This document shows positions 4,860 to 43,375 of a stretch of 64,000 bases of DNA, piece after piece. Below the pieces are notes generated by a model. It did no database searches and was not told where the DNA came from. It saw only the letters and a list, made by a program, of their open reading frames with translations. The DNA lies in assembly GCA_008632985.1 (NCBI GenBank), contig QPGO01000007.1, positions 744,001-808,000 of the forward strand, in the 5' to 3' direction. The DNA comes from Psammoneis japonica. Lineage: Eukaryota. The translations under genes and the position numbers were made by a program. The stretch's first letter is position 1; the number at the start of each line of letters is the position of its first letter.

Positions 4860-6436
4860 ATGGTGAAGATCGCAGCTCTTGCTCTGGGCCTGGCCCTTGC
4901 TACATCGGCTTCGGCCTTTGCTCCTCGGCATGTTGCCCAGCCGATTCGGTACGACCAACATATCAGAACGCTTTTGACACGCTTGTTGATGGCGGCTTCT
5001 CATTGTTTGTCTGCCAATGGAGAAACGAGCATTGAAACTAGCATGTAACTGCGGTTTCGGTCGATACGTTATTTTTGCAGCTCACACGATTCGTAAATTG
5101 CTACAATTGACTCACCTGCGGTCTTGTGTTTGTTTCGTTTCCCAGCGCCGGCGAAGCTAAGGTGTCACCAGTAGCCCTCAGTATGGCTTCTGACAAGAAA
5201 ATATCTAAGCGCAAGTTGGCATTGAAGGTACGTCATGGCTTTTGCACAAGGGATTTCTTGCGATTACGTTGTTCACTGGTTGAGTTTCTCACAGCGTTTT
5301 GATCGCATCGACAGACGTTGGCAAAGACAGCCGGAGCTCTTTCTACCGTCGCTCTAGCTACTACTGCGGCTCCTCCTGCCGCTCTCGCTGCCAAGAAGGT
5401 CGTTGAGGTTGTCGAGACCACTGACAACACCAAGAAGATTGTTGGCGTGGCTGTTGGAGTTGGTGCGGCTGCGCTTGCTGCAGCCAAGGTCCTTGGTGGA
5501 CCAAAGAAGCAGGACTTCTTGGAAGCTGATCCTTACTGGGACCAATCCACCGTTCCTGTCAATGTTTTCAAGAATAAGGCTCCCTTCACCGGCAAGGTTG
5601 TCTCCACCAAGCGAATTGTAGGGCCCAAGGCAACGGGAGAGACCTGCCACATTGTCATTGACCACAAGGGCAAGTTTCCTTACTGGGAAGGACAGTCATG
5701 GGGTGTCATCCCCCCAGGTGTCCGCGAAAAGGACGGCAAGCCTCACTCGGTCCGTTTGTACTCGATCGCGTCCAGTCGTTATGGTGATGATATGTCTGGC
5801 AATACGGGAAGTCTTTGTGTCCGTCGTGCCACTTACTGGTGCCCCGAGCTGAAAGCCGACGACCCTGCCAAGAAAGGCATCTGCTCCAACTTCCTCTGTG
5901 ATACCAAGCCTGGCGATGAAGTGCAAATGACTGGTCCCGCCGGTAAGGTGATGCTCTTGCCCGAGGAGGATCCCAACACGGATTACATTATGGTTGCTAC
6001 TGGAACTGGTATTGCTCCCTACCGTGGCTTTGTGCGTCGGTTGTTCACAGAGGACACGCCTGCGGCGAATGCTTACAAGGGACAAGCATGGTTGTTTTTG
6101 GGTGTTGCCAATAGCGATGCTCTTTTGTACGATGACGAGTGGCAAGAGGTGAAGAAGAACAACCCTGATCAATTCCGTCTTGACTATGCTCTTTCGCGTG
6201 AACAAGAGAACAAGAAAGGAGGCAAAATGTACATCCAAGACAAGGTCGAAGAGTACGCTGACGAAGTGTTTGAAAAGTTGGAGAATGGCGCACACATTTA
6301 CTTTTGCGGGTTGAAGGGAATGATGCCTGGTATCCAAGACATGCTCCAGGATGTCGCCAAATCGAAGAAGATTGACTACGATGAGTGGCTGAAGGGGTTG
6401 AAGAAGAACAAGCAGTGGCATGTGGAAGTGTACTAA
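4860..6436 (+). CDS. petH: Plastid ferredoxin-NADP+ reductase, 3 exons: 4860-4948, 5146-5227, 5315-6436
   Basis: Signal peptide ending ASAFAP; motifs [36 protein letters not shown]-terminal WHVEVY. Confidence 0.95.
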
Positions 6437-7748: not shown

Positions 7749-9261
7749 TTACTCCAGTGCTTGTGCTCCTGCAACAATCTCGAGAATTTCTTGGGTGACC
7801 GCAGCCTGGCGGGCACGGTTGTACAGCAAACTGAGCTCCTTGGCAAGGTTTCCTGCGTTGTCACTTGCACTCTGCATAGACTGCATACGGGCAGCAAGCT
7901 CGGAGGCAACGGACTCTTGAAGGGTACGGAGGATCTGCCCATTAAGGTAGAGGGGCAAGATCGAGTTGACAATCTGAAGAGGGTCCTGCTCAAAGATCAT
8001 GTCGTTGGGGAAGTCTTGTGGTTCAGCAACTCCAAGGTCGGTGCGTTCGACGCCAAACTCTCCGTTCTCAGAAGTGAGCTGGAAGACCTCATCACCTTGG
8101 TTGGTGATCTCAGAAGCAGAGAAAGGAACCAACGTGCGCACACTAGGGGTGGAGGCAATGAGAGACACAAACTTTGTGTAGAAAAGCTCAACGGCATCGG
8201 TTTCTCCAGCAAGGTAGGTGTTGAGGATCTCTTCAGAGATAGCAAGCGCCTGGCTGGCATCGGGGTTCTGTCCGCAGTCATACGTCTTGCGGATTGGGTA
8301 GTTACGGCGCTCAAAGTAGGTAACTCCCTTCTTTCCAATAAGGATCATATCAGCATCAATGCCCTGTTCCTTGAGCTCCGCGAAACGAGCTTCAGCCTTC
8401 TTGATCATGAATGAATTGTATCCGCCGCAAAGACCACGGTCACCAGTGATCACAACAAGGGTAACCTTCTTGACATCACGCTGAGTGAGGAGAGGAAGGT
8501 CCATCGTTTCACCGCCAAGACGAGAGATAAGGCCTCCAAATACAGATTGGAGGGTCTCAGAAAAGGGACGGGTAGCAAGTACAGCATCCTGGGCACGGCG
8601 CACCTTGGCGGCAGCGACAAGCTTCATTGCCATCGTGATTTTCTTGGTATTCTGAACGGTGGCGATTCTGTCACGAATGGCTAGAAGAAAAAAAGAAACA
8701 AACATTAGCAAACAAATCAAATTATCGGTAGAGGATAAAACCATCTAACCAGGATGCTATCGGCAGAAACCCCATCATTCATCAAGAGTCTTGTGCGTCG
8801 TGAGAAAGAGCTCCCATCATTCGCTCTCAACTCTCAATTTCGGCTTCATAAAGACCGCTCTCAAGCTCTGTCACAGATATCTAATAAATGTTACCCCAGC
8901 GCTCATAGTTTCCATATTATAAATCGAAATTTTTCCTCGTCATGGTCGGTGAAGGAAAGTTGAACACAATTTCACAAAACGACGCGAGTTTTCTACGAGA
9001 GCTACACGTAGATTTCAGTATGGTACGTGTTGTTTCTCATACGCATGAAGAACTCGCCGTACAAAAGTACGTAGAGATACACGTACCGTTGGCTTTGCCA
9101 TCCATGACGATTGTCGCCCGACGAGTGCGGTGAGCAGAATTGTCGGCAACAACATTGTTAACGCTTTGACCAACCGATGGCGTTACAGTTGTGAAAGCTC
9201 CACCCGATGTGGTGAAAGCAGAGGCGGTCGCAAGAGCGGCAGCGACGCAAAGAAACTTCAT
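7749..9261 (-). CDS. atpC: Plastid ATP synthase gamma subunit, 2 exons: 9261-9087, 8680-7749
   Basis: Presequence MKFLCVAAALATASAF; spliced GKANAIRDRI; KITMAMKLVAAAK, GDRGLCGGYN, ELAARM, YNRARQAAVTQEILEIVAGA. Confidence 0.95.
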
Positions 9262-25500: not shown

Positions 25501-28098
25501 TTTTTGTGCTGCGCCACACTGCAAGCATGGGCATGAAGTGGTCTGGGACTGCAAGCATGCCTTGGCCCTTGACAAGCGCAATGGCAACCTCAAGTGGGGA
25601 AGTGCAACAGATCTTGAGATGACTCAGCTTGGTGAGTGTGAGGTCTTCTTCCATGATTGTGGACACTGCAAGGATTCCAGCACCCCAGCAGGACACAAAA
25701 AGATTTGGCTGCACCTTGTCTGTGATGTCAAACATGACAGTGGGCACAAAGCACAACTTGTTGCCAATGGACACCTCACGGACACACCCATCAACAGTGT
25801 CCACTCTGGAGCAACAGTGCCCCTCCATGGCCTCCAACTGATGGTCTTTTCTCAGCCAAACTCAATGAGCTGGAGACATGGGTGACCAACATTGGCAATG
25901 CCCACCATGAAGCCATGACCAAGGAGAAACCGCACATTGTTGCAGGTCCCAAATTTGAAGAATTGGAAGGACACATCCTTGTCATCCACAAGGCTCTGCA
26001 TGGCTTCCACAGCTCTGGCAGCCTCCAATGGCTCAAACATTTTGCCAGTTGTCTGCAAGCTGAAGGATTCTTCCTGTGCCATGCCCAACCTGACATCTGG
26101 TGGCTGTGCCAGAATGGTGACCATTGCAAACATGTGGCAGTGCACGTGGATGACATGGCCTTTGCCATGAAAGATCCTCAGGCCTTTGTTGACACTCTCA
26201 CTGAGAAACACAAGTTCAAACTCAAAGGCACTGGACCATTGGAACTTCACCTTTGTTGCAACTTCTCACATGATTCCAGTGGCACACTGTGCCTTGCTCC
26301 TTGCAACTGCATTGAGAACATGGTCAAACTTGCACATGCCACTTTGGGGAGAATCCTTGCAGTGACGTGCTGTCCCCTCTTGAAAAGGGAGACCACCCTG
26401 AGCTCAACACCTTCAAACTGCTCCTGATGGCATCCATCTATTTCAGTTCTTGGTTGGTTCCCTGCAATGAGCTGCATCACTTGGTCACATTGACACCACT
26501 GCAGCCATCATGTCTCTCTCTCTGGCTTCTGCATGGCACCTTGTCAAGGCCACCTGGATCATGCCAAACATGTCTGTGGACACTTGTCCAAGATGCAACA
26601 TGGTGCCCTGTGTGTGCACACCAAGGAACCCAGCTGTTTGGACCTCCCCAAGCCTGTGTGTGGCTGGGCTCAAACCATGTGTGATGATGTGGAAGAGCTG
26701 CTTCCCGAAGACATGCCTGAGACTCTTGGCAAGTTTGTCACCACAACCCATTTTGTTGATGCAAACTTGTTCCATTGCATGCTCACTGGATGCTCCATCA
26801 TGGGCACCACTCATTTCCTCAACAAGTTTCTGGCTAAGAAACAGTCAAGACTGCAACTTGTGGATCTGAGTTCATTGCCACCAGGATGTGTGTTGAACAG
26901 ATCATTGATCTGTGCATCACGTTGTCTCATCTCGGCATCCCGACTCGTGACACCCGTTGCATGCTCAGGGACAGCAAGTCAGTTGTGGATGGTGCTGCTG
27001 TCCCACACTCCAAGTCACACAAACAACACACCACCCTCTTGTTCCATTGTGTGTTGAGGCAATTGCCTCTGGTTTCCTTGAGTTTCACTTCATTGAAGGT
27101 TCCCGCAACCCCGCTGACATTCTCTCAGCAAACAAAGGGGGTTGCTCCCAGGTTTGGAGCCTCCTCCATCCTCTCATGTTTTGGAACTTTGATCCTGGGG
27201 CCTTCAGCCAATCTAACTTGAAACCCATCTCTGTGGACTCCTCAAGCAAACTGGAAAGTGACTGGATTTAAACAAGATTTTAGTTCATCACACACATGAT
27301 TGTGTGTGCTCTTGGTTCAGCATGTGATGTGCGCACGATGCAGTTTGCTTTCAAGACACTCAGCTCACAAGAACAATGACAGCAACACCAACATCATGAC
27401 ACCAGTCTTTTGGCTCCTGCGATGGTTTCTGCATGGAGACTCATCTGCCATTTAGACAGCAGTGAGGAGTTGTTGTTTTCTTCCACCCGCTTTCTCTTCA
27501 TTTTCCATCATCTCTGCTCTCCACTTGCCCCCCTCTCCCAATGGAGACATTCATGTGACAAGACTGCAGTCAGCAACAGTGGTGGCAGCCAGCAGCAGCA
27601 GCAGTGGAAAGGAGGATGAGAGACATTGACACAACACTTGCTGTGGGGGGTGGTCAGCCCTCTTGTTGGCCTTGCCGCCGCTGGCCGCTGTTGTCACCAA
27701 CTTTTGGCTGGCCCCATCGTCTCTCTCCTGGCGGGCGGTTGTGTCTCCTCATTTTCTCATTCATCAGTGTGAAGGTTCACATCTGCAAGAAAAGGTGAGT
27801 AAACAAGTCTCAGGCAACACAGCTGAGGAAGTGATGGAAAGTGTTGTTGTGCGGCGATCAGATCGATTGAGATTGTCGATCGGCGGCTTCACTCGTGTCA
27901 TCGCTCATCTGTCATCTGCGCGCGCGTCAGGCCGCGAGGCACCGCGGCCGGGTACTCGTACCGTACCGTACATACGAGCATCGGGTGCAAAGGGATGATG
28001 AGGTTCGGCTTTCGCACTTCTACTCCTTATTCTCACTCATCACTCAAGTCACTCAGGCTTCTCCTTCCACAGGCTCAGTGCTCCTTCCAAACGTCATC

Positions 28099-29733
28099 AT
28101 GGACTTTGCCATCTTCGGAGAAGCGGAGACGGCTGCCAAAGCCGTGAATTCTTTAAATGGTTTCGCTCGGTTGTGGAAATTCAGGACCGGAAGTGACGAA
28201 GAACTCGACGAAGTATTCAGATACTTTGCTTATAATGCCACCTTTCAGTTTGACTCGCTCCAAGAACGCCTTGTCGATTTTGTCGTCTGCTACCGTGAAT
28301 TCTGTCCGGCTGATATTGACCGGCTTGATCCGAACAGCTGGCATACCTTGATGTTCTGTTTCTCCGCCTACAAGCATGGCTACGATGCTGGCTATCAAGA
28401 AATCTGCATGGTCGCCGCGGGATTGTGGGATATGCTGAAGAACACGGAGGAAGCTGACTTCCGAAAATGGCTTCAGTTCTTCATTTGGGCTCTAGCTGGT
28501 ACCTACTATGCAGCAGATGCCGGAGCAAAGGGTGAGCCGACTGTGAGCAAGTTGCTAGATCTGGACGAGTTTAGGGGTTCTTTACCTTTTGAGCAAGTCG
28601 TGGAGAAAGATCCTGGGTCGCATTTCGTGTTTATTTCGCACCGCTGGTTGGAAAAGCATCACCCCGACCCAGGAGGGGATCAGAAGGGCATCATAGTTGC
28701 TAGATGCGAGCGGGCGCAAAAGTTTTTGGACTATATTCTGGACCCGTCCACCATGCCCAATATCGCTGAATCCGATTTTGAGGCGACGCAGGGAGAGCTG
28801 GCAAACACCATTTTTGATGGTGAACTGCGTTGGTCAGTCTATTTCTTCGCCCGCTGTCAGCCCAAGTTACTCTTGTGGTATGACTATTACTCTGTTCCCC
28901 AAGGCGGTGATGTGGCTTCTAGAGAGTTGCGGGGTGCTTGTATGGCGGAGATTGCCCAGCTCTGTCGCTCCATGCCAGTTTTTGCAATCTCTTCTCCAGA
29001 CTATTTTGCGAGGGGTTGGTGTTTCTTTGAGAGTCTTCAGAGTCTTCTTGGGAATTCTGAACTACTTTTTTGCGAAAATGACCAGGCCTCTTCCAACAAT
29101 GTGACCATGCGAGAAGTTCTCAAGGACTGTTATGGTCGGTTTTGTAGAGAAATGGAGCAACGAAGATCTCCGAGCAATGTCTTGGCCACCCTTGGTATCG
29201 CTTGCACCAATGGATCGGACCTCGACTATCTTTCCGATATTCTCGAGAAGGATTCTGCCAAAGGGAATTATGGCATTACAACGTTCGGTTTCGTTGCTCA
29301 CCCCTATCTTACAGCGTACCGTAAGTTCATCCATGAGGTTGTCAGCCAGAGCGACAAGTCAAGCAATGAATGGGGTGCGTTGGTTAGTATGTTTGAATAT
29401 TTCCACGGCCGGGTAGTCAACTCAGTGCCAACGCCTGATGATACGATCGCACAAAGAGAGGAGATGGAGGAAGTGACATTGCGGTGGAACTATCCTGGAT
29501 ATGGCACAGCCTGCGTGTTGGAAATGAAGGAGGATTGGGAGAATGCACCAAGTTTTGCCGAAGATGTGCACTCGCTGTTTGAGCTCATGAAGGAAATGGC
29601 AAAAGAGAGTACTCTGGGTTTGTCAGTTTTGGAATTTGCAGACAATGAGTACCCCAGGTTTAAGGTACAGCTCGAAGAGGCTCTGGCTAGAACATCAGGG
29701 TTTCCAGTTCAGATTTGCACCAAGAATGAATAA
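28099..29733 (+). CDS. HET (heterokaryon-incompatibility)-like domain protein, intronless, 544 aa
   Basis: FVFISHRW...PDP, LWYDYYSVPQ, YFARGWCFFE and CTNGSD motifs; intact, Tyr-rich ORF. Confidence 0.75.
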   Translation: MDFAIFGEAETAAKAVNSLNGFARLWKFRTGSDEELDEVFRYFAYNATFQFDSLQERLVDFVVCYREFCPADIDRLDPNSWHTLMFCFSAYKHGYDAGYQEICMVAAGLWDMLKNTEEADFRKWLQFFIWALAGTYYAADAGAKGEPTVSKLLDLDEFRGSLPFEQVVEKDPGSHFVFISHRWLEKHHPDPGGDQKGIIVARCERAQKFLDYILDPSTMPNIAESDFEATQGELANTIFDGELRWSVYFFARCQPKLLLWYDYYSVPQGGDVASRELRGACMAEIAQLCRSMPVFAISSPDYFARGWCFFESLQSLLGNSELLFCENDQASSNNVTMREVLKDCYGRFCREMEQRRSPSNVLATLGIACTNGSDLDYLSDILEKDSAKGNYGITTFGFVAHPYLTAYRKFIHEVVSQSDKSSNEWGALVSMFEYFHGRVVNSVPTPDDTIAQREEMEEVTLRWNYPGYGTACVLEMKEDWENAPSFAEDVHSLFELMKEMAKESTLGLSVLEFADNEYPRFKVQLEEALARTSGFPVQICTKNE

Positions 29734-31592: not shown

Positions 31593-33594
31593 TCAGTACA
31601 CTTCCACGTGCCATTGCTTGTTCTTCTTCAACCCCTTTAACCACTCATCGTAATCGATATTCTTCGATTTGGCGACACTTTGGAGCATGTCTTGGATACC
31701 AGGCATCATTCCCTTCAACCCGCAAAAGTAAATGTGGGCTCCATTCTCCAACTTTTCAAACACTTCATCAGCATACTCTTCGACCTTGTCTTGGATGTAC
31801 ATTTTGCCTCCTTTCTTGTTCTCTTGTTCACGCGAAAGAGCATAGTCAAGACGGAATTGATCAGGGTTGTTCTTCTTCACCTCTTGCCACTCGTCATCGT
31901 ACAAAAGAGCGTCGCTGTTGGCAACACCCAAGAACAACCATGCTTGTCCCTTGTAAGCATTCGCTGCAGGAGTGTCCTCTGTGAACAACCGACGCACAAA
32001 GCCACGGTAGGGAGCAATACCAGTTCCAGTAGCAACCATAATGTAATCCGTGTTGGGATCCTCCTCGGGCAAGAGCATGACCTTACCGGCGGGACCAGTC
32101 ATTTGCACTTGATCGCCTGGCTTGGTATCACAGAGGAAGTTGGAGCAGATACCCTTCTTGGCAGGGTCGTCGGCTTTCAACTCGGGGCACCAGTAAGTGG
32201 CACGACGGACGCAAAGACTTCCAGTTTTGCCAGACATATCATCACCGTAACGACTGGAAGCGATTGAGTAGAGACGGACCGAGTGAGGCTTTCCGTCCTT
32301 TTCACGGACACCTGGGGGGATGACACCCCATGACTGTCCTTCCCAGTAGGGAAACTTGCCCTTGTGGTCAATGACAATGTGACAGGTCTCTCCCGTTGCC
32401 TTGGGTCCAACAATTCGCTTGGTGGAGACAACCTTTCCGGTAAAGGGAGCCTTATTCTTGAAAACATTAACGGGAACGGTGGACTGGTCCCAGTAAGGGT
32501 CAGCTTCCAAGAAGTCCTGCTTTTTGGACCCTTTTACAAACTCACTACCGGTAATGAGAGCTAGGGCGGCGAGTGCGGCAAGCCCACCCTTTTTCCCCGC
32601 AAGGGTAATGGCAGACACAATCACACCGGCGGAAACGACACCGGTAAAAATAGAAGACAAGGCTACCGCTGTGGGCATACCCAAGAGAAAAGCACCCATT
32701 GCTCCCGTCCAAGCACCGGTTCCTGGAAGTGGAATACCGACAAAGGCAGCCAACGAAGCCCACTGTTTCTCTACTGAACCTACACCAAGACTTGCCGACT
32801 TTTCTTCTGCACGAGAAAGCATGGGAGCCATCAATTTTCTAATGGAACAGCATTATGGTGAGCAAGGTGCAAACAATATTTGCACACAAGGGTAAATAAA
32901 TAGCAAAAGCATCACTCCAAACGACTCACTTGAGCTTTTCATTGCGGAGCAGAAACATCAGGGGAACAATTGGCATCATGTTACCAATCACACAGGCTGG
33001 CAAGACTGTAGTGATGGGCAAGCCCATCCAAAAGCCTACAGGCACTGCACCACGAAGTTCGACTACGGGCAAGGCTGAAATAATTGCCAAAACTGCCACA
33101 TCGGGAAGGCCAAAGGACTGAAAGTACTGCGCAATCTTTTGTCCTACATGCAAATGTTCCGTCGAAGCACCGGCAGTCGCAGCTAGAGCGGGTCCAGTAC
33201 TGAGCAAAGTTAATGCACTAAACGCAAGAGCAGCCCGTGTAAAAATCTTCAATGTCGCCTTGCCAAACTTAAACTTCCTCGTTTTCGAAAAGGATGCTTC
33301 CGAAACATCTGAAGATTTCGTATAGAGCGGTCTAGTAACACTGACTCTATCGCTGATAGGAGAAAGAGCAGTCCGAGCAGCATTTACTCGATACACATTA
33401 CACGAATTGAACCTATTTAGGGGAAAAGCAACGACACAAGACGATTTTGGTGGTGAATGACACAAACAACATGACAGTCGCGCTAGCTAGCAACTACCCT
33501 ACGGATCAACATACCGCACAGAGGGACCTGAAGAAAAGGCATCTATCAAAGGCAGGCCCAGAGTCACAAAGGCGGCAAACGACAACAGCTTCAT
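31593..33594 (-). CDS. Plastid-targeted fusion of a 'small multi-drug export' type membrane domain and ferredoxin-NADP+ reductase; exons 33594-33515, 33412-32930, 32838-31593
   Basis: Presequence ...[40 protein letters not shown], then in the same exon [12 protein letters not shown]...WHVEVY, nearly identical to the FNR at 5501-6436. Confidence 0.85.
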
Positions 33595-33753: not shown

Positions 33754-34451
33754 NNNNNNNNNNNNNNNNNNNNNNNNNNNNNNNNNNNNNNNNNNNNNNN
33801 NNNNNNNNNNNNNNNNNNNNNNNNNNNNNNNNNNNNNNNNNNNNNNNNNNNNNNNNNNNNNNNNNNNNNNNNNNNNNNNNNNNNNNNNNNNNNNNNNNNN
33901 NNNNNNNNNNNNNNNNNNNNNNNNNNNNNNNNNNNNNNNNNNNNNNNNNNNNNNNNNNNNNNNNNNNNNNNNNNNNNNNNNNNNNNNNNNNNNNNNNNNN
34001 NNNNNNNNNNNNNNNNNNNNNNNNNNNNNNNNNNNNNNNNNNNNNNNNNNNNNNNNNNNNNNNNNNNNNNNNNNNNNNNNNNNNNNNNNNNNNNNNNNNN
34101 NNNNNNNNNNNNNNNNNNNNNNNNNNNNNNNNNNNNNNNNNNNNNNNNNNNNNNNNNNNNNNNNNNNNNNNNNNNNNNNNNNNNNNNNNNNNNNNNNNNN
34201 NNNNNNNNNNNNNNNNNNNNNNNNNNNNNNNNNNNNNNNNNNNNNNNNNNNNNNNNNNNNNNNNNNNNNNNNNNNNNNNNNNNNNNNNNNNNNNNNNNNN
34301 NNNNNNNNNNNNNNNNNNNNNNNNNNNNNNNNNNNNNNNNNNNNNNNNNNNNNNNNNNNNNNNNNNNNNNNNNNNNNNNNNNNNNNNNNNNNNNNNNNNN
34401 NNNNNNNNNNNNNNNNNNNNNNNNNNNNNNNNNNNNNNNNNNNNNNNNNNN
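33754..34451. other. Assembly gap (N run)
   Basis: Run of n. Confidence 1.
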
Positions 34452-35251: not shown

Positions 35252-38200
35252 GATTAACAGTCTTGCTCATTGTCAACCCATTGAGCAACCGCCATCGTCG
35301 TCGTTGATTTGCCGACGACGCCACTTCAATTCTGCATGGACCTCCGTACATGTTCCACATGCATCGGCAAGTTTACGCGCATCCAACACCAGGGCATCGG
35401 CAGGAAGTTAACGTCACGGTCATGGCCTCCTCACCGCTGGACATCTGGATTGATTGTGCCACCTTTGATCGCTGAAGACATGCATTCAACGGTCATGTCC
35501 AAGTCCATCCTTGATCCTCATCCCTTGACATGCCCATTCATCGGTTAACGGTCAAGAACCCTGCATGTTCAAGGATCTCTGTCGCTGAAGACACATGTGT
35601 GCACATGTCTTCACGGCCAAGGACTTGAACCCACTCTTTGGACTGCGGCTTTGCCACCACTCTACAAGCACGCCGAGTCTGTTGCACCTGATCTACCCCG
35701 GACTGCTGGTGCTCTGCAGTTCCACTGGGTCCACGAGGACGACTGTGAGAGCAAGCAGCCGTGATTGCAGCCTACGTTGGGGCGAGGGTGTTTTCCCGCG
35801 TTTGTTCGTTCGTCCACAGTGCCTGGCGCCTGCGTCAACTGGCCAGCCTGATCGGAAAATCCAACCGACATAAAATGAGAACGGTTTGGGGGTCTTGTCC
35901 ACCTCCAGTCAGCTTGCCTGCGGGGGTTTGCAACCCGCTGCTCCGCTCGCAAGCAACCCAAAGCGCCACTGGCTGCGGGTTCGAACGTGCCGGCACAACT
36001 CTAAGGACCGGACAGGAAGTTTAGCACTTGACAACGAACGGGACAGCAAAGCCCAGCGACTTCTGATTTTGGGGCAGTTCAAGATTTCAAGTCAAGTCCA
36101 TTTCAAGTCAAGTCTGTTCTCACCCAAGCTTCAAGTCTGTCTTCGCTTCCCAACAAGAATTGATTGTCCTGACACCACTTTTGTCTACCATGGTTCTCAC
36201 TTGTCAGCAACAAACCGATGGTTTTGAGCACGTTGTTGGAACCGTGCTTGCCCAAGGTGCTGGGAGTCCTCTTCGTTTGGCTTTGGCCCAAGACGGCATG
36301 GACTCGCATCAAGAACTGTTCACGTTCATGCCGTCCCAAATCGACTCGCTTGAGTGCGACAACGGCACCAATGTGATCCCTTTGCCCCGCGGTTGTGAGA
36401 ACATGTTGGCAGCCCCAGTTGGTCTGTACATTGTCAAAGCACACAAAGGTCTTGACGTTGCCAATGACTCCTCGTTGTTCACGCATGACGAGTTCCTTGC
36501 CCACCGCCTCAGCCCCGACTGCATGTCTTCTGTGTCCATCGGCAGCTCACCCCTCGCACCTCCGCATGTCACCAACCCGACCAAGGCACGCGACCCGGTG
36601 CGAGACTTCAAGCGAGGCATCAAGCATGACCCCACCGCTTTCACGGCTCTCAAATCCGACAAGCAGTGGCACACTTGGCACACCTCACTTGTGGCACAAG
36701 CCCGTGCCCCCAAGACGTCGAGTGCATCCTAGACTCGTCGTACAAACCGACCAGCCCCAAAGACAAACTGCTCTTTGCTGAACAGCAAAAGTGCATGTTT
36801 GCCGTCTTCGAACGCATCCTTCTCACCGACAAGGGCAAGGCTCTCATTCGCGAAAATGTGGGGTCTTCTGACACCCAGACCGTCTGCCGCGCCTTGTCTG
36901 AGCATGCGCTCGCCTCCACCCGTGCATCTGTCGAGTCCCCCACCTTGCTGGCGTGCCTCACCACCGCACGTCTTGGTGATGGCACTTGGAAAGGTCCGAC
37001 CCACGGGTTCATCCTTCATTGGCAAGATCAGTTGCGCAAGTGCGAGGCACTCATCCCGGCCAGTGACCACTTCTCTGAAGGACAGAAGTGCATCATGCTC
37101 GAGAATGCCGCACACCCTGTCGAGGAACTCCGTGCTGTCAAGAACCAAGCTGATCAGCATCGCACGCAGAGTGGCAAGAGCCTCACATACGATCAACACT
37201 GTGGCTTGCTGATGTGTTTTCATCCCAGGTGAGAAACGCGCATGCGGAGGTGAGACATTTCGTCTGTCCCTTTTCCATTGCCATGCTTTTTGTGCGAGCA
37301 AATCTGACTGGACTTTCCCCCGATTTTTCATTTCTTCTTTCTGCAGACATGTTTATTTTGAAAAGCCAGCCGTCATTCTCATTGGTTGAAGGGTGCGCAC
37401 AAGAAAAGCGCTTTCTCGAAAGCGGCATTTTTTGGAGTGAAACTGACAGCTGTCTGCTCGTTGTTGTTATTCTGGTGCATTTGAGAGACTGTTCCACTGT
37501 TTCTTTCACCGAATCTGACCACTTTGAAAGAATGCACGCATTGTTCATTGTGTGAAGAGCTCACACCAAAAAAGAACGGCGTTCTAACTCTGTCATTTGC
37601 ACAAGAAAAATCGGGGGAACTGACTTCGCACGTGATTTTTTTGCGCGATCGGCCATTTCAAAGATCGACTGATTTGTCGACCTGTGTGGGACACTTGAGT
37701 GAACAAAACAATGGGATTGAAATGGCAGCGTCAAAGTTCAATGTGTGTCTAGTCATTGTGTGATTTGACATGCTCAAGCAGAGTTAAAGATGAAATGTTG
37801 ACAAAATTTCACCGCTCAAAATGACTGGTTCTATCTTAGAATAAAATAAAATGGCTGCAACACTGAGATGTCGCTAATGGCATTGTTCTACTTTACAACA
37901 ATGAAACTGTCACACTTGCATCTGAGATTCTTTATCCTCACACACCCTCAAAACCGAACACATGACGATTCTCTTGTCAGCAGCGAAATCTGATGTTGTC
38001 GCGCGACCCAAAAGCGTCGTCCACAACGACTCAAAGTGTGGACGATACATTGTGAGAATCACAGCAACGTGTCATAGAAACATTCTTCGTTGTCAGTGTC
38101 CGGTGTCAAGTAGATGGAGCAGCGCGTTGATGAGAATCCTACTTCGCAAGCTGAGGAAGAGAGAAAGAGGCATCAAAAATGTCATGAGTCAAAAGGCCAT

Positions 38201-41200
38201 CCACAAGGCACAACAAAAAACAAAGATCAAATTTTCAACCACATCATCGCACCGAGCGTTGTCTTGTTGACCTGTCTCGGCATTCTTACCTTCTCAGTCA
38301 CAACATCCGTTGGTGCAAGAATGGACGAGTTCATGGCGACGGCATGGTGCCATTTTCGGTTTGCGCGAATTGTGGTTTGTGGTTCGAGACATGGAAAAAC
38401 ACATTTTTGCTGTCATGGAGCTCGTTTTTTACTAAGATTTTTGGTGCTAAATGCACGTCTCATGTAGAAACACGTAGAAAACCTCGTGATGTGACCAAAA
38501 GTTTCTCACCCAGGATGAAAACACATCTGCTCCTCTCCGCGGCAGCTCAATGCGACAGTGCGTTTCAACCCAAGACGACACCTCGAGCTCCCCGACGCGC
38601 CATGTGCGCACACGACGTCTGCTCCGAGGAACCGTCCAATGATGTGTTCTGTGACATTGACAGTGACATTGACGTCCTTCAGGCCAATGCTGCCTGCACC
38701 CGTGGTCCCAGCCTCACCGGTGACCAATGGAAACGTCTCCCTCCCGACCACCAACGGATTTGGGATTCGTTGCCCCATTCCTCCAAGGCGATCATCCTTG
38801 AGCATTCTTGCCCGCCTCCCCGCAACCCGCAAGACAGCAACTGCCATGAGTCCATTGCGGCCAACCTTCACGACCACCGCCTTGGGAGTGACGGTGATGT
38901 CAACTTGTCCAACACGACTCCTGCTGACTCTGGTGACTCCACTCCAAATGTGGGTGCCACTTTGGACAATCCCATCCTGGCGCACCTCACCAAGCGCAAG
39001 CCACTGCCACCCGGTGATCTGCAACGTCTGTTGTCTCCTAACCAAGCCCCCAATGCTGGTCGACCGGGGCCATCCGCCGCTCCCTCTACCCCGCCAGCTT
39101 CTGCCGATGACACAGAACTTGGCGGCTGCACTTGCCATCGCGTTGATGACCACAATGTCATTTGCTCTGCCTCTGCTCATTGCTCCACACGCACTGGTGC
39201 TCTGGTCGATCGTGGGGCCAACGGCGGCATTGCTGGCGACGACGTTCGCATCATTGCACGCACCTCTCGCCAAGTCGACGTTCAGGGCATTGATGACCAT
39301 CAATTGGTGGACATCCCTGTTGTCACCGCTGGTGCCGTCATTGAGACCCAGTGTGGTCCCGTCATCGCCATCCTCCATCAGCACGCATGCACGGGCAAGG
39401 GCAAGACCATCCATTCCTGCGGCCAGCTTGAATGGTGCAAACAGGATGTCAACGATCGCTCTGTCAAGGTGCCCAACGGCTTGCAATGCATTGCCACTCC
39501 TGGTGGCTGTGTCATCCCCATTGACATCAAGGGCGGCCTGCCTTGTGTTGCCATGCGACCTTGCACTAATGCCGAGTGGGACACCCTGCCCCATGTCATC
39601 CTCACCGGTGATGACACATGGGATCCTTCCGTCCTCGATCACTCTGTCACTGACGATGACCAGTGGTGCGACGCGATCTCTGACCCACAGGACGGTCCCA
39701 CTGCCAACCTGTTTGACGGGTGCGGCAACTGCCGTCATCGTGTCATTGTCAACGAGACCATCATGTCCACTTCCTTGTCTGCCGATCACGCGTCCACCCT
39801 CGATGATCACCTCATTCTGAACAACGACGTGTTCTGCGAGTGTCATCTACATGCGATTGACCCCAAGGACGACGACGTTCCGCCCCTGGAGCGCACTGTG
39901 CAGCCCAAGGACCCCCCCTTCGAGTCTCTTCGGCCTTGCTTTGGCTTCCCACCTGCCGATGCGGTCCGTCGTACTTTTGACTGCACCACGCAGTGCGCCC
40001 GCATGCCAGCCGGCACACACCTTGGGAAGGCCTGCAAATCACCCAACCCCGCCCTTAACGCACACCGCCGCAACGAGCCTGTCGCCACTGACACCGTTTG
40101 TGCCGACACCCCGGCCGTCGACTCTGGTTGCACCAGCGCCCAACTGTTTGTTGGCACCGAGTCTGCCGTCACTGACGTCTGCGGCACCAAGACGGACAAA
40201 GAGTTTGTCAACACACTCGAGGATCAGATCCGTGAGCGTGGTGCCCCATCCAAACTCATTGGCGACCGTGCTCAAGTTGAGATCAGCAACAAAGTGCTCG
40301 GGATCCTACGAGCCCTCTTCATCTCCAGCTGGCAAAGTGAGCCTCACCAGCAACACCAAAACTTTGCCGAGCGTCGACACCAGACCGTGAAGCGCATGGC
40401 GAACACTGTCATGGATCGTTTTGGTTCGCCCACCCACACATGGCTGCTGGCGCTCATGTGCGTGTGCTTCACACTCAACCATGCAGCATCCCCACGTCTC
40501 CACTGGCACACGCCCCTCGAGACTCTCACTGGCTCCACCCCGGACATCAGCCCATTGCTTCGCTTTCACTGGTGGGAACCCGTGTGCTTCCACCTTGATG
40601 ACTCCGATTGGCCGTCCGAATCCCGTGAGTTGCGTGGATGCTTTGTTGGCATTGCTGAGCACGTCGGCCACCAGATGACCTTCAAGATTCTCTCTGACGA
40701 GACTCAGAAGATCCTCCACTGGTCCAACGTACGCTCCGCCACCACCGATCCTGCCGTTCGAAACCTGCGTCTTGATCCTCCTGATGGGGAGCCACCTGAA
40801 CCCATCATCAAATCTCGCCATGATGACAACCCCGTCGATTCTCCTGATGGGGAGATCAGGACACCCAAGATGCCAGTTTTCGATCCGCAAGACATCATCA
40901 GACGCACCTTCTTCATGCAGCCACAAGAGGACGGACAATGCCACAGAGCTTGCATCGTCAAGGCCGTCGAAGACCACGAATGGAAAGTGAACGGCAATCC
41001 CGAGCTTGCTAAGTTCATCTGCTCTGTCAACAATGACGAACACGAGGAAGTCCTTGCCTGCAACGACATCATGAATCACATTGAGCAAGAAGACGAAGAC
41101 ACTGCTGTTTGGAAATTCCGACGCATCGTGTCACACGAAGGACCTCTGAAGCCTCATGACCCAACCTGGAAAGGCTCAAGCTACAACATCATGCTTGAAT

Positions 41201-43375
41201 GGGAAAGTGGGGAGATCACGTCCGAGCCTCTTGCCATCATCGCCAAGGACAACCCCATCACCTGCACCATCCATGCACGAGAGAACGGACTTCTCGACAC
41301 GGATGGCTGGAAGCGGTTCCGCACCATTGCGAGGCGCCAAAAGAAGCTATTTCGCATGGCCAACCAAGCCAAGCTTCGCTCCTTCCGCACTGCACCTCGC
41401 TGCAAGTGCGGACACGAAGTTCCCCGGAACTGCAAACATGCCATGTCACTAGACGAACGCAATGGCAACCGCAAATGGGGAGACGCAACTAATCTCGAGA
41501 TGGACCAACTCGAGGAATACGAAGTCTTCCATGACTGCGGGCCCTTCGAGTCTTCCACTCCTCCTGCGGGACACAAGAAGATCCGAGTGCACCTGGTGCA
41601 CGACGTGAAACATGACGGTCGCCACAAGGCACGACTCGTAGCCGATGGGCACCTCACGGACATGCCTGTTGACAGTGTCTGCTCCGGAGCAGTCTCCCTC
41701 CGTGGCCTTCGGCTGATGATTTTCCTGGCCGAACTCAACGAGTTGGAGACATGGGCCACCGACATTGGCAATGCCTGCCTTGAAGCCACCACCAAGGAGA
41801 AGCTCTACATTGCAGCCGGACCCGAATTTGGCAAACTCGAAGGACACATCCTTGTCATCCACAAGGCCCTGCATGGACTGCACAGCTCCAGCCTCCGCTG
41901 GCACGAGCGCTTCGCCGACTGCCTGCGAGCTGAAGGCTTCTTCCCCTGCCGCGCCGAACCCGACATTTGGATGCGCAGGAACGGCGACCACCATGAATGC
42001 ATTGCCGTTTATGTGGATGACCTCGCCATTGCTGTGAAGGACCCTCAATCTTTCGTTGACACTCTCACGGAAAAGTGCAAGTTCAAGCTCAAGGGTGCGG
42101 GACCCATTGAGTTCCATCTGGGTTGCGACTTTTCCCGGGATCCCGACGGCACCTTGTGCCTGTCTCCGCGCAAGTACATCGAGCGCATGGTCGACAGCTG
42201 CACCCGACTGTTTGGGGAGAAACCTGCCACCAACGCCCTGTCACCTCTGGAGAAGGGCGACCACCCCGAACTGGACACTTCCGAACTGCTGGAGCCCAAT
42301 GGCATTCACAAGTTCCAGTCCCTTGTTGGTTCACTCCAATGGGCAGTGTCTCTTGGTCGAATTGACATCACCACGGCCGTCATGTCACTCTCTAGCTTCC
42401 GAGCTGCGCCCCGTCAAGGCCACACTTGGATCGTGCCAAATGCGTCTGTGGGTGCCTCTCCAAGATGCGACACGGCGCTCTCCGCATTCGCATGGAAGAG
42501 CCCGACTGTTCGGATCTCCCTGCTCCGGCCTGTGAATGGATGCATTCCGTGCACGGCGAAGCAGAAGAGATGATCCCAAAGGACGCTCCACCGCCCCTTG
42601 GCAAGTTCGTCACTGCCACCCACTACGTCGATGCAAACTTGTGCCATTGCATGCTCACCGGACGCTCTGTCATGGGAATGCTCCACTTCCTCAACAAATT
42701 CCCGGCTGATTGGTTCTCTAAGAAGCAAGCCACCATGGAGACTGCGACCTGCGGGTCTGAATTTGTTGCCGCAAGGACTTGTGTCGAGCAGATTGTCGAC
42801 CTGTGCATCACCCTGCGCCACCTTGGCATCCCGATCCGCAATGTCAGTTACATGTTCGGTGACAACAAGTCGGTTGTAGACAGTGCCACCATCCCGCACT
42901 CCAAGTTACACAAGCGACACACCACACTATCGTTCCACCGTGTGCGTGAGGCAATTGCCTCTGGTTGCCTTGAGTTCCACTTCATCGAAGGCTCCCGCAA
43001 CCCTGCTGACATTCTCAGCAAGCATTGGGGTTGCTCCCAAATCTGGGACCTTCTCCGCCCCCTCATGTTCTGGAACTTCATTCCATCCGAAGTCGAATCT
43101 GTTTCTGTGGCTCCTCAAGCAAACTGGGGAGTGACAGGATTTGAACAGGATTTGGGTGCGCGCGAAATGTCGCGCGCTGTTTAGTTTGCCGCGCACAGTT
43201 TTGTGTGCTTTAGTTCCGCGCGTTCGCGCACGATGTAGTTTGCTTTCGAGCCACGAGGCTCACAAGAATAACAACAGCAGCCCGATCACACTGACTTGCA
43301 CGTCTTTCGGCTCCTGCAATGGTCTCTGAGCGGAGACTCATCTGCCATTTAGACAGCAGCAAGGAGTCATTGTTT
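35252..43375 (+). mobile_element. Younger Ty1/Copia element: PBS about 35252, gag from about 36190, pol to about 43130, PPT about 43125-43131, truncated 3' LTR 43132-43375; no 5' LTR
   Basis: Protease LVDRGANGG; integrase VATDTV, SEPHQQHQNFAERR; RT HLVHDVKHDGRHKARLVADG, YVDD; RNase H; frameshifts at about 36705 and 42421. Confidence 0.95.
37211..38527. mobile_element. Non-autonomous TIR DNA transposon (1317 bp) inserted in Copia gag, 4-bp TSD TGCT
   Basis: 27-bp TIRs gatgtgttttcatcc(ca/tg)ggtgagaaac; tgct at 37207-37210 and 38528-38531. Removal restores GLLLS, as in the old copy at about 22750. Confidence 0.9.

What the first reader, a model, noticed from the sequence alone, without database searches (positions are those of the whole stretch)
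31593..33594. Chimeric plastid protein: membrane 'small multi-drug export' domain fused to FNR
Seen: a single exon runs in frame from [14 protein letters not shown] and further hydrophobic helices into a full FNR, and the identity with the other FNR starts abruptly at KKQDFLEAD. Upstream exons give ELRGAVPVG and a plastid presequence. Inference: a polytopic membrane-anchored FNR, either a recent chimera or an older fusion homogenised by gene conversion. It would link this poorly characterised membrane family to thylakoid electron transport.
Basis: partly seen in the sequence, partly recalled or inferred. Interest (0 to 1): 0.72.

Follow-up and report, generated by a model that had tools for sequence, protein, structure and literature searches.

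The report
Diatom FNR with built-in membrane anchor
This diatom gene joins a transporter-like membrane domain of unknown job to the enzyme that makes NADPH in photosynthesis; the fusion is old and shared by many diatoms, and it probably fixes the enzyme to the photosynthetic membrane, where position is known to shift how electrons are routed.

Summary
The gene is real: three exons, 602 aa, with a plastid presequence, a thylakoid-type second signal, a complete PF06695 (DedA-superfamily) membrane domain and an intact FNR. A spliced contig skips both introns and crosses the junction. It is not a recent chimera: 113 of the 120 best long relatives also carry FNR, in centric and pennate diatoms. The neighbouring FNR gene is a second, equally old class with a single membrane helix; a soluble FNR lies elsewhere. 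The two anchored classes keep distinct N-termini, but their FNR domains pair by species (98.7% here, 99.7% Phaeodactylum, 95.1% Seminavis; AU tests reject either class as a clade). That is concerted evolution, and it explains the abrupt identity at KKQDFLEAD. Best reading: a thylakoid-integral FNR facing the stroma (0.65). Location, topology and the job of the membrane domain are inferred. Ten literature searches found no description, but three relevant papers were not held. This scan noted the fusion before in two other genomes. New variant of a known kind; interest 0.62.

The parts
33515..33594 (-). Exon 1: signal peptide (residues 1-19, 33594-33538) followed by Phe at +1, the usual start of a diatom plastid presequence
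   Evidence: model, hydropathy peak 3-21; splice seen in contig X2-10; the +1 Phe rule is recalled
33413..33514 (-). Intron 1, GT-AG, 102 nt
   Evidence: skip of 102
32930..33412 (-). Exon 2: transit peptide, second signal, first half of PF06695
33181..33267 (-). Thylakoid-type second signal (residues 76-104): basic stretch, hydrophobic core, A-L-A cleavage site (inferred)
   Evidence: coordinates; hydrophobic core in 35 of 35 and an A-x-A-like site in 31 of 35 fused relatives with a scorable N-terminus
32839..32929 (-). Intron 2, GT-AG, 91 nt; same place and phase in the independent diatom contig L013
32538..33156 (-). PF06695 / DedA-superfamily membrane domain (residues 113-288): two helix-turn-helix motifs ([23 protein letters not shown]), two core helices and one extra C-terminal helix; the only PF06695 match in the genome
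   Evidence: 23 of 23 family-conserved residues kept; model of a stand-alone relative at pLDDT 87.8
31593..32525 (-). Complete ferredoxin-NADP+ reductase domain (residues 293-602) with [32 protein letters not shown] and a free C-terminal Tyr
   Evidence: dN/dS 0.035 against the neighbouring paralogue
4860..6436 (+). Paralogue 'gene 2': 430-aa FNR with presequence, thylakoid-type signal, short acidic stretch and one membrane helix (exons 4860-4948, 5146-5227, 5315-6436; introns inferred); inverted relative to the fused gene, 25 kb away
   Evidence: class widespread in diatoms (anchor in 114 of 115 scorable hits among the 120 listed); FNR domain 98.7% identical to the fused one

Best explanation
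A conserved diatom gene for an integral thylakoid FNR. The precursor enters the plastid by its bipartite presequence. A second signal puts the mature N-terminus in the lumen and is cut off. The PF06695 domain crosses the membrane three times (plus two re-entrant loops) and leaves FNR on the stromal face on a short linker, where it passes electrons between ferredoxin and NADP(H). The membrane domain is an older plastid protein with its own conserved job (transporter- or flippase-like); the fusion places one pool of FNR wherever that protein sits. The cell also makes a single-helix-anchored FNR and a soluble FNR, so three pools of nearly the same enzyme differ mainly in location. Gene conversion between the two anchored genes keeps their catalytic domains alike. 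Shown: gene structure, splicing across the junction, domain content, age, purifying selection, pairing of FNR domains by species. Inferred: thylakoid location, topology, role in routing electrons, conversion as the mechanism.
For: Spliced contig across both introns and the junction. 113 of the 120 listed hits of 230-734 aa match FNR, 106 nearly full length; an ESM Atlas cluster of 54 members carries both families in all members; an independent genomic contig shows the same frame and the same second intron. The membrane domain is 76-85% identical in eight diatom orthologues, against 84-92% for FNR. Second signal: hydrophobic core in 35 of 35 fused, 86 of 97 single-helix and 30 of 33 distant mostly stand-alone relatives; fused and single-helix signal regions align at 97% probability, E 1.7e-11, while the distant set aligns with neither (0.5%, 1.8%). 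The loop predicted as stromal holds 6 Lys/Arg. The core topology of two re-entrant loops and two helices is from passages of 10.1101/2020.06.27.174763 and 10.1101/2020.12.18.423352. Concerted evolution. Tethering FNR to PSI raised cyclic flow in Chlamydomonas (PMC11912148, abstract and passages).
Against: No localisation, proteomic or activity data seen. The Arabidopsis relative At2g02590 is listed among plastid solute transporters (PMC2246286, one passage), which fits an envelope location as well. The signal features had no control set of non-thylakoid plastid proteins. The third helix passes my hydropathy cut-off in only 73 of 115 relatives, DSSP shows one continuous helix over the last two segments of the domain model, and the loop GKKGG would put two lysines in the lumen. 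The full-length model is poor (pLDDT 57). Stand-alone forms exist in Thalassiosira, so the fusion is dispensable in some diatoms.
Confidence: 0.65

Rival explanations
1. The same fusion sits in the inner plastid envelope (or serves dark metabolism) and runs NADPH to ferredoxin for membrane-bound users such as desaturases or the import machinery, like Tic62-bound or root-type FNR.
For: The best solved match of the FNR domain of relative P0028 is maize root FNR (E 3e-136) well ahead of leaf FNRs (E 1e-87). The Arabidopsis relative is tabulated as a plastid solute transporter.
Against: The soluble FNR of this genome is 91% identical to the fused one, so root-type likeness is not special to the fusion. 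A cleavable second signal with an A-x-A site is typical of thylakoid proteins (recalled) and is shared with the single-helix class.
Confidence: 0.15
2. The two domains work as one machine: FNR-derived electrons or the local redox state drive or gate the membrane domain (ion-coupled transport, lipid or prenyl-phosphate flipping, or quinone binding).
For: The membrane domain keeps 23 of 23 family-conserved residues, more than a passive anchor needs. The fusion has lasted across centrics and pennates although a one-helix anchor already exists. 4 of 41 same-strand neighbours of prokaryotic relatives are lipid-carrier genes (BacA, PAP2, GtrA-glycosyltransferase, polysaccharide synthesis, no control).
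Against: The linker varies from a few to over 40 residues among relatives, which suggests loose coupling. The domain stands alone in Thalassiosira, a raphidophyte, a brown alga, a dictyochophyte and Arabidopsis. None of the 80 loci but the diatom one had an FNR match.
Confidence: 0.12
3. A polyprotein: the two parts share targeting signals and are cut apart after import, giving a free membrane protein and a soluble FNR.
For: Linker length and sequence vary widely; unfused forms exist.
Against: No conserved cleavage motif or second transit peptide is seen in the linker; in this gene it is under ten residues. A soluble FNR gene already exists.
Confidence: 0.06
4. Recent chimera or assembly artefact in this genome.
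For: Identity with the neighbouring gene starts abruptly at the junction; an assembly gap lies 160 nt upstream of the start codon and retrotransposon remains flank the gene.
Against: DNA and spliced contigs cross the junction; the two FNR copies differ at 43 of 308 codons, 39 of them silent; the architecture is shared by many diatoms.
Confidence: 0.02

Closest known systems
Plant-type ferredoxin-NADP+ reductase, root-type clade (maize root FNR, PDB 1jb9 / 3lo8)
   Same: Whole catalytic domain aligns at E 3e-136 (query P0028); FAD, NADP and C-terminal Tyr motifs present in the window protein.
   Different: Carries an N-terminal second signal and a polytopic membrane domain; none of the 60 PDB chains listed matched outside the FNR part.
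[quoted passage not shown]
   Same: Pfam match above cut-off; 41% identity over 188 residues to the Arabidopsis protein; motifs at both predicted re-entrant loops kept.
   Different: Known members stand alone; passages read describe the family as core-only, whereas the plastid clade has an extra helix and a second signal, and here an enzyme. No multidrug export was shown in anything I read; function is given as unknown.
FNR tethering by TROL, Tic62 and LIR1 in vascular plants
   Same: Membrane attachment of FNR on the stromal side.
   Different: Those are separate anchor proteins (passage of PMC5683061) with reversible binding (recalled); here the anchor is covalent and unrelated.
N-terminally extended FNRs: cyanobacterial CpcD-PetH and eustigmatophyte FNR-N docked on PSI
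   Same: An N-terminal module built into FNR sets its position (NCBIfam NF058510; 10.64898/2026.08.10.743057, abstract and passages).
   Different: Those modules are soluble docking segments; the eustigmatophyte one is said to be confined to that group. The diatom modules are membrane-integral, and the CpcD-PetH match covers only the FNR part, below the cut-off.
Engineered PSAF-FNR chimera of Chlamydomonas (PMC11912148)
   Same: FNR fused to the stromal C-terminus of a thylakoid membrane protein by a short linker.
   Different: Artificial and bound to PSI; the diatom proteins are natural and their partner complex is unknown.

Membership tests
Plant-type FNR | FAD-binding and NADP-binding domains with the RxYSIAS, GxxSxxL, ATGTGIAP and CGLKGM motifs | tested here: met
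Plant-type FNR | Free C-terminal tyrosine | tested here: met
   protein ends in EVY before the stop
Plant-type FNR | Ferredoxin:NADP+ oxidoreductase activity | not testable with these tools
   only purifying selection (dN/dS 0.035)
PF06695 / DedA superfamily | Pfam PF06695 above gathering score over the whole profile | tested here: met
   63.2 and 37.9 bits for the two exon parts, cut-off 30.7; 105 bits over positions 1-121 in orthologue P0576
PF06695 / DedA superfamily | Two re-entrant loops turning at conserved prolines in an inverted repeat | tested here: inconclusive
   Prolines kept and short helix pairs at both places in the model; coordinates were not inspected and no solved relative was found
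PF06695 / DedA superfamily | Transport, flippase or scramblase activity | not testable with these tools
   proposed only, in passages read
Diatom plastid-targeted protein | Signal peptide followed by Phe at +1 and a transit peptide | tested here: met
   hydrophobic 3-21 and A-F at 19-20; A/S/G-F at a like place in the 12 full-length fused sequences printed (my pattern caught 9 of 12). No targeting predictor was run
Thylakoid membrane protein with cleavable lumen-type signal | Basic region, hydrophobic core, A-x-A site after the transit peptide | tested here: inconclusive
   features present in most relatives but no negative control; location untested
Cyanobacterial CpcD-PetH (NF058510) | CpcD linker domain N-terminal to FNR | tested here: not met
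   match covers profile positions 106-405 only, 353 bits against a cut-off of 635
Chlamydomonas ANR1 cyclic-flow effector | Homology of the membrane domain to ANR1 (Cre03.g164000) | not tested
   sequence could not be fetched; three primary papers not held

The most novel reading that the evidence does not exclude
The PF06695 domain is a thylakoid unit that binds or flips prenyl lipids, and the fused FNR delivers electrons to plastoquinone held in its cavity or gates its transport. The fusion would then be a diatom route for cyclic or chlororespiratory electron flow, and the first assigned function for the plastid PF06695 family, Arabidopsis At2g02590 included.
Probability: 0.1. Interest if true: 0.88.

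Novelty: new variant of a known kind. Interest (0 to 1): 0.62.

Why it matters
Whether the position of FNR sets the split between linear and cyclic electron flow is an open question that has needed engineered fusions, because FNR is essential (PMC11912148). Diatoms appear to carry natural, gene-encoded positions: soluble, one-helix and polytopic, with almost the same catalytic domain. Each could be knocked out singly. The fusion also gives a first functional handle on a plastid DedA-superfamily protein conserved up to Arabidopsis. It has been easy to miss: the Phaeodactylum gene is split into two partial NCBI models, and the FNR half (XP_002180511) was used as the plain diatom FNR in a published sequence list (PMC5683061).

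Tried and rejected
Recent chimera and misassembly: rejected. Repeated birth of the single-helix gene from the fused gene in each lineage: rejected, because the gene 2 N-terminus matches centric single-helix proteins at 57-73% (E 1e-8 to 4e-20) and gives no BLAST hit to its own fused neighbour. ANR1 link: I recalled that Chlamydomonas ANR1 might be of this family; the gene id I recalled belongs to another protein, the right id is Cre03.g164000, its sequence was not obtained and the primary papers were not held; left open. Complex prediction of the FNR domain of P0028 with the stand-alone membrane domain P0153: no answer (score 0.00, alignments not used). Structure searches for the membrane domain: no sequence match under E 0.2, no Foldseek match at E 0.001, best Z 6.0 at rmsd 7-8 to ArsB and TRAP transporters, too weak to use. 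Full-length AlphaFold model: pLDDT 57, not used. Run search: no RNA holder listed. Contig depths were not used to rank expression. Collapsed or mixed contigs over the FNR part in X1 were not used as evidence of conversion: 32 of 32 listed variant letters are simply gene 2 letters. The W/Y difference near the FNR start does not mark the fused class. The count of 22 of 113 fused domains nearest to a single-helix one was dropped, since some truncated fused proteins were misfiled there. Prokaryotic neighbourhoods: no ferredoxin or FNR among 41 neighbours from 40 of 80 loci examined. A genome-wide look at earlier notes gave 7 unrelated findings.

Full report
Observation. The - strand holds a three-exon gene: 33594-33515, 33412-32930 and 32838-31593, with GT-AG introns of 102 and 91 nt, giving 602 aa. 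Pfam places PF06695 across exons 2 and 3 and the FNR NAD-binding domain in exon 3. It is the only PF06695 match in the genome (2 of 2 candidates, both exons of this gene). In public runs of one sample, a DNA contig spans 32352-33753 unbroken, and a second run's contig skips both introns exactly and continues about 175 nt into the FNR part. That contig stays separate from the gene 2 contig down to 32352; the two genes differ at 9 places in 32352-32522, so I infer that it carries the fused gene's own letters there, which the table does not show directly. The run is labelled 'DNA?' and may share its source with the window. The 3' part of the fused transcript was not seen on its own.

Age. A search with the membrane part of exon 3 among proteins of 230-734 aa gave 317 hits; of the 120 listed, 113 match FNR and 106 hold it nearly whole. 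The length limit favours fused forms. Named members include the pennates Seminavis, Epithemia and Cylindrotheca and the centrics Chaetoceros, Ditylum, Dactyliosolen, Leptocylindrus and Corethron. In Phaeodactylum tricornutum, two consecutive partial models (EEC47918, EEC47919) match the two halves of one unnamed 607-aa fusion protein at 139 of 139 and 297 of 298 residues. A metagenomic DNA contig (L013) shows the same frame into FNR and the same second intron. An ESM Atlas cluster of 54 members has both families in all members. Two more distant unnamed fusions (P0522, 63% in the membrane part; P0204) may lie outside diatoms; their lineage was not established. Among shorter proteins only 7 of the 120 listed match FNR; many are fragments, but several end in a short acidic tail and cluster with Thalassiosira records. 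Stand-alone relatives were named in Fibrocapsa, Choristocarpus, Octactis and Arabidopsis (At2g02590). So the membrane protein is an old plastid protein, fused to FNR early in or before diatoms and unfused in at least some Thalassiosira; whether by loss was not tested.

Three FNR classes. The genome has three close FNR genes: the fusion; gene 2 at window 4860-6436 (430 aa); and a 339-aa soluble form on contig C555. Gene 2 is not a plain FNR. After its presequence come a second signal, a short acidic stretch and one hydrophobic helix (residues 99-117), and it joins FNR at the same KKQDFLEAD. This class is widespread: 114 of 115 scorable hits among the 120 listed carry the helix and lack the PF06695 motif, with names from Nitzschia, Pseudo-nitzschia, Amphora, Seminavis, Odontella, Helicotheca, Cyclotella, Discostella and Conticribra. 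Profiles of the second-signal regions of the two classes align at 97% probability (E 1.7e-11); a set of 33 distant relatives aligns with neither. One anchored class therefore probably arose from the other long ago; the direction is not shown.

Why identity starts abruptly. The fused and gene 2 FNR domains differ at 39 silent and 4 replacement codons of 308 (dS 0.24, dN/dS 0.035); both are far from the soluble gene (dS 1.2-1.3). Similarity stops at the stop codon and at the junction. The gene 2 N-terminus is 57-73% identical to centric single-helix proteins but has no BLAST hit to its neighbour. Yet FNR domains pair across classes within a species: 98.7% here, 297 of 298 in Phaeodactylum, and 95.1% as mutual nearest neighbours among 220 domains in Seminavis. 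In all, 9 of 113 fused domains have a single-helix partner at 95% or more; five of these pairs are unnamed on both sides and one on one side, and they could include assembly chimeras. On 23 named sequences that I chose, AU tests reject monophyly of the fused class (p 3e-6) and of the single-helix class (p 6e-4) for the FNR domain (quick tree); a 56-row tree with hand-picked pairs shows the same cherries. The longest identical run is 45 codons against 28 expected (p 0.026), a weak sign of tracts. Old N-termini with young shared catalytic domains point to recurrent gene conversion. The two genes lie 25 kb apart and inverted here; in Phaeodactylum they are 8-9 accession numbers apart on records of equal length; in Seminavis the contigs differ.

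How it most likely works. The N-terminus reads as signal peptide (1-19), Phe at +1, transit peptide, then a second signal ending in A-L-A at 104; reading these as plastid and thylakoid signals rests on recalled rules. Published models give PF06695 a core of amphipathic helix, re-entrant loop and membrane helix, repeated in inverse orientation (passages). Mapped here, the core starts and ends on the same side, the loop with 6 Lys/Arg lies on the other, and the extra third helix brings FNR back to that side. With the N-terminus in the lumen this leaves FNR in the stroma, the same in-out result as the one-helix class. Against this: the third helix passes my cut-off in 73 of 115 relatives, the domain model shows the last two segments as one helix, and two lysines would face the lumen. 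The membrane domain keeps 23 of 23 family-conserved residues and 76-85% identity across diatoms, so it probably keeps a job of its own. Among 41 neighbours of prokaryotic relatives, 4 concern lipid carriers (no control), which agrees with the recalled role of DedA proteins in undecaprenyl-phosphate recycling but is only a hint.

Comparison with what is known. FNR tethering is a known theme: TROL, Tic62 and LIR1 in plants (PMC5683061, passages), CpcD-PetH in cyanobacteria, a soluble N-terminal docking segment in eustigmatophytes (10.64898/2026.08.10.743057, abstract and passages). Densities fitted as FNR were seen on PSI in Thalassiosira thylakoids (PMC8331139, passages). An engineered PSAF-FNR raised cyclic flow (PMC11912148, abstract and passages). 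A review notes low constitutive cyclic flow in most diatoms (PMC11314055, passage). Ten full-text searches showed no description of a PF06695-FNR fusion or of a helix-anchored diatom FNR. I saw listings and selected passages only, read no supplements, and three papers on ANR1 and PETO were not held, so earlier mention is not excluded. The architecture is already present in public databases. Two earlier notes of this scan describe the same fusion in other genomes; I saw only their short texts, after forming my reading, and they are not independent support.

Verdict. A real, spliced, ancient diatom fusion; a new variant of a known kind (self-anchored FNR), one of two membrane-anchored FNR classes whose catalytic domains evolve in concert. 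Interest 0.62.

Noticed in passing
window 4860-6436 (+): Second membrane-anchored FNR class (second signal, acidic stretch, one helix), conserved in centric and pennate diatoms including Thalassiosirales; not found described in the searches run.
   Followed up: yes
window 7752-8744 (-): Plastid-type ATP synthase gamma subunit frame (PF00231, E 1e-91), 1.3 kb from the single-helix FNR gene.
   Followed up: partly
window 38188-42573 (+) and pieces at about 19.6-27 kb, 33.6-37 kb, 42-46 kb: Ty1/copia-type pol frame of 1461 aa (RVT_2) with several decayed copies between and beyond the two FNR genes.
   Followed up: no
window 33754-34451: Assembly gap of 698 N, 160 nt upstream of the fused gene's start codon.
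   Followed up: no
window 27871-29733 (+): 620-aa open frame with no Pfam match at E 0.01.
   Followed up: partly
L004 (G000:C211:87095-88073) and L006 (G000:C471): A fourth, divergent FNR-like gene with a signal peptide (55-58% to the fused FNR) and a frameshifted near-copy of the same region on another contig.
   Followed up: partly
window 31525, run X1: One contig leaves the window sequence about 70 nt past the fused gene's stop codon (loose end): possibly another haplotype of the 3' flank.
   Followed up: no
L031:2513-3319, L037:10283-10816, L059:8651-9748, L087:6759-8669: Prokaryotic PF06695 genes next to BacA, PAP2, GtrA-glycosyltransferase and polysaccharide-synthesis genes.
   Followed up: partly
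NCBI EEC47918 / EEC47919: The Phaeodactylum tricornutum fusion gene is annotated as two partial proteins.
   Followed up: yes
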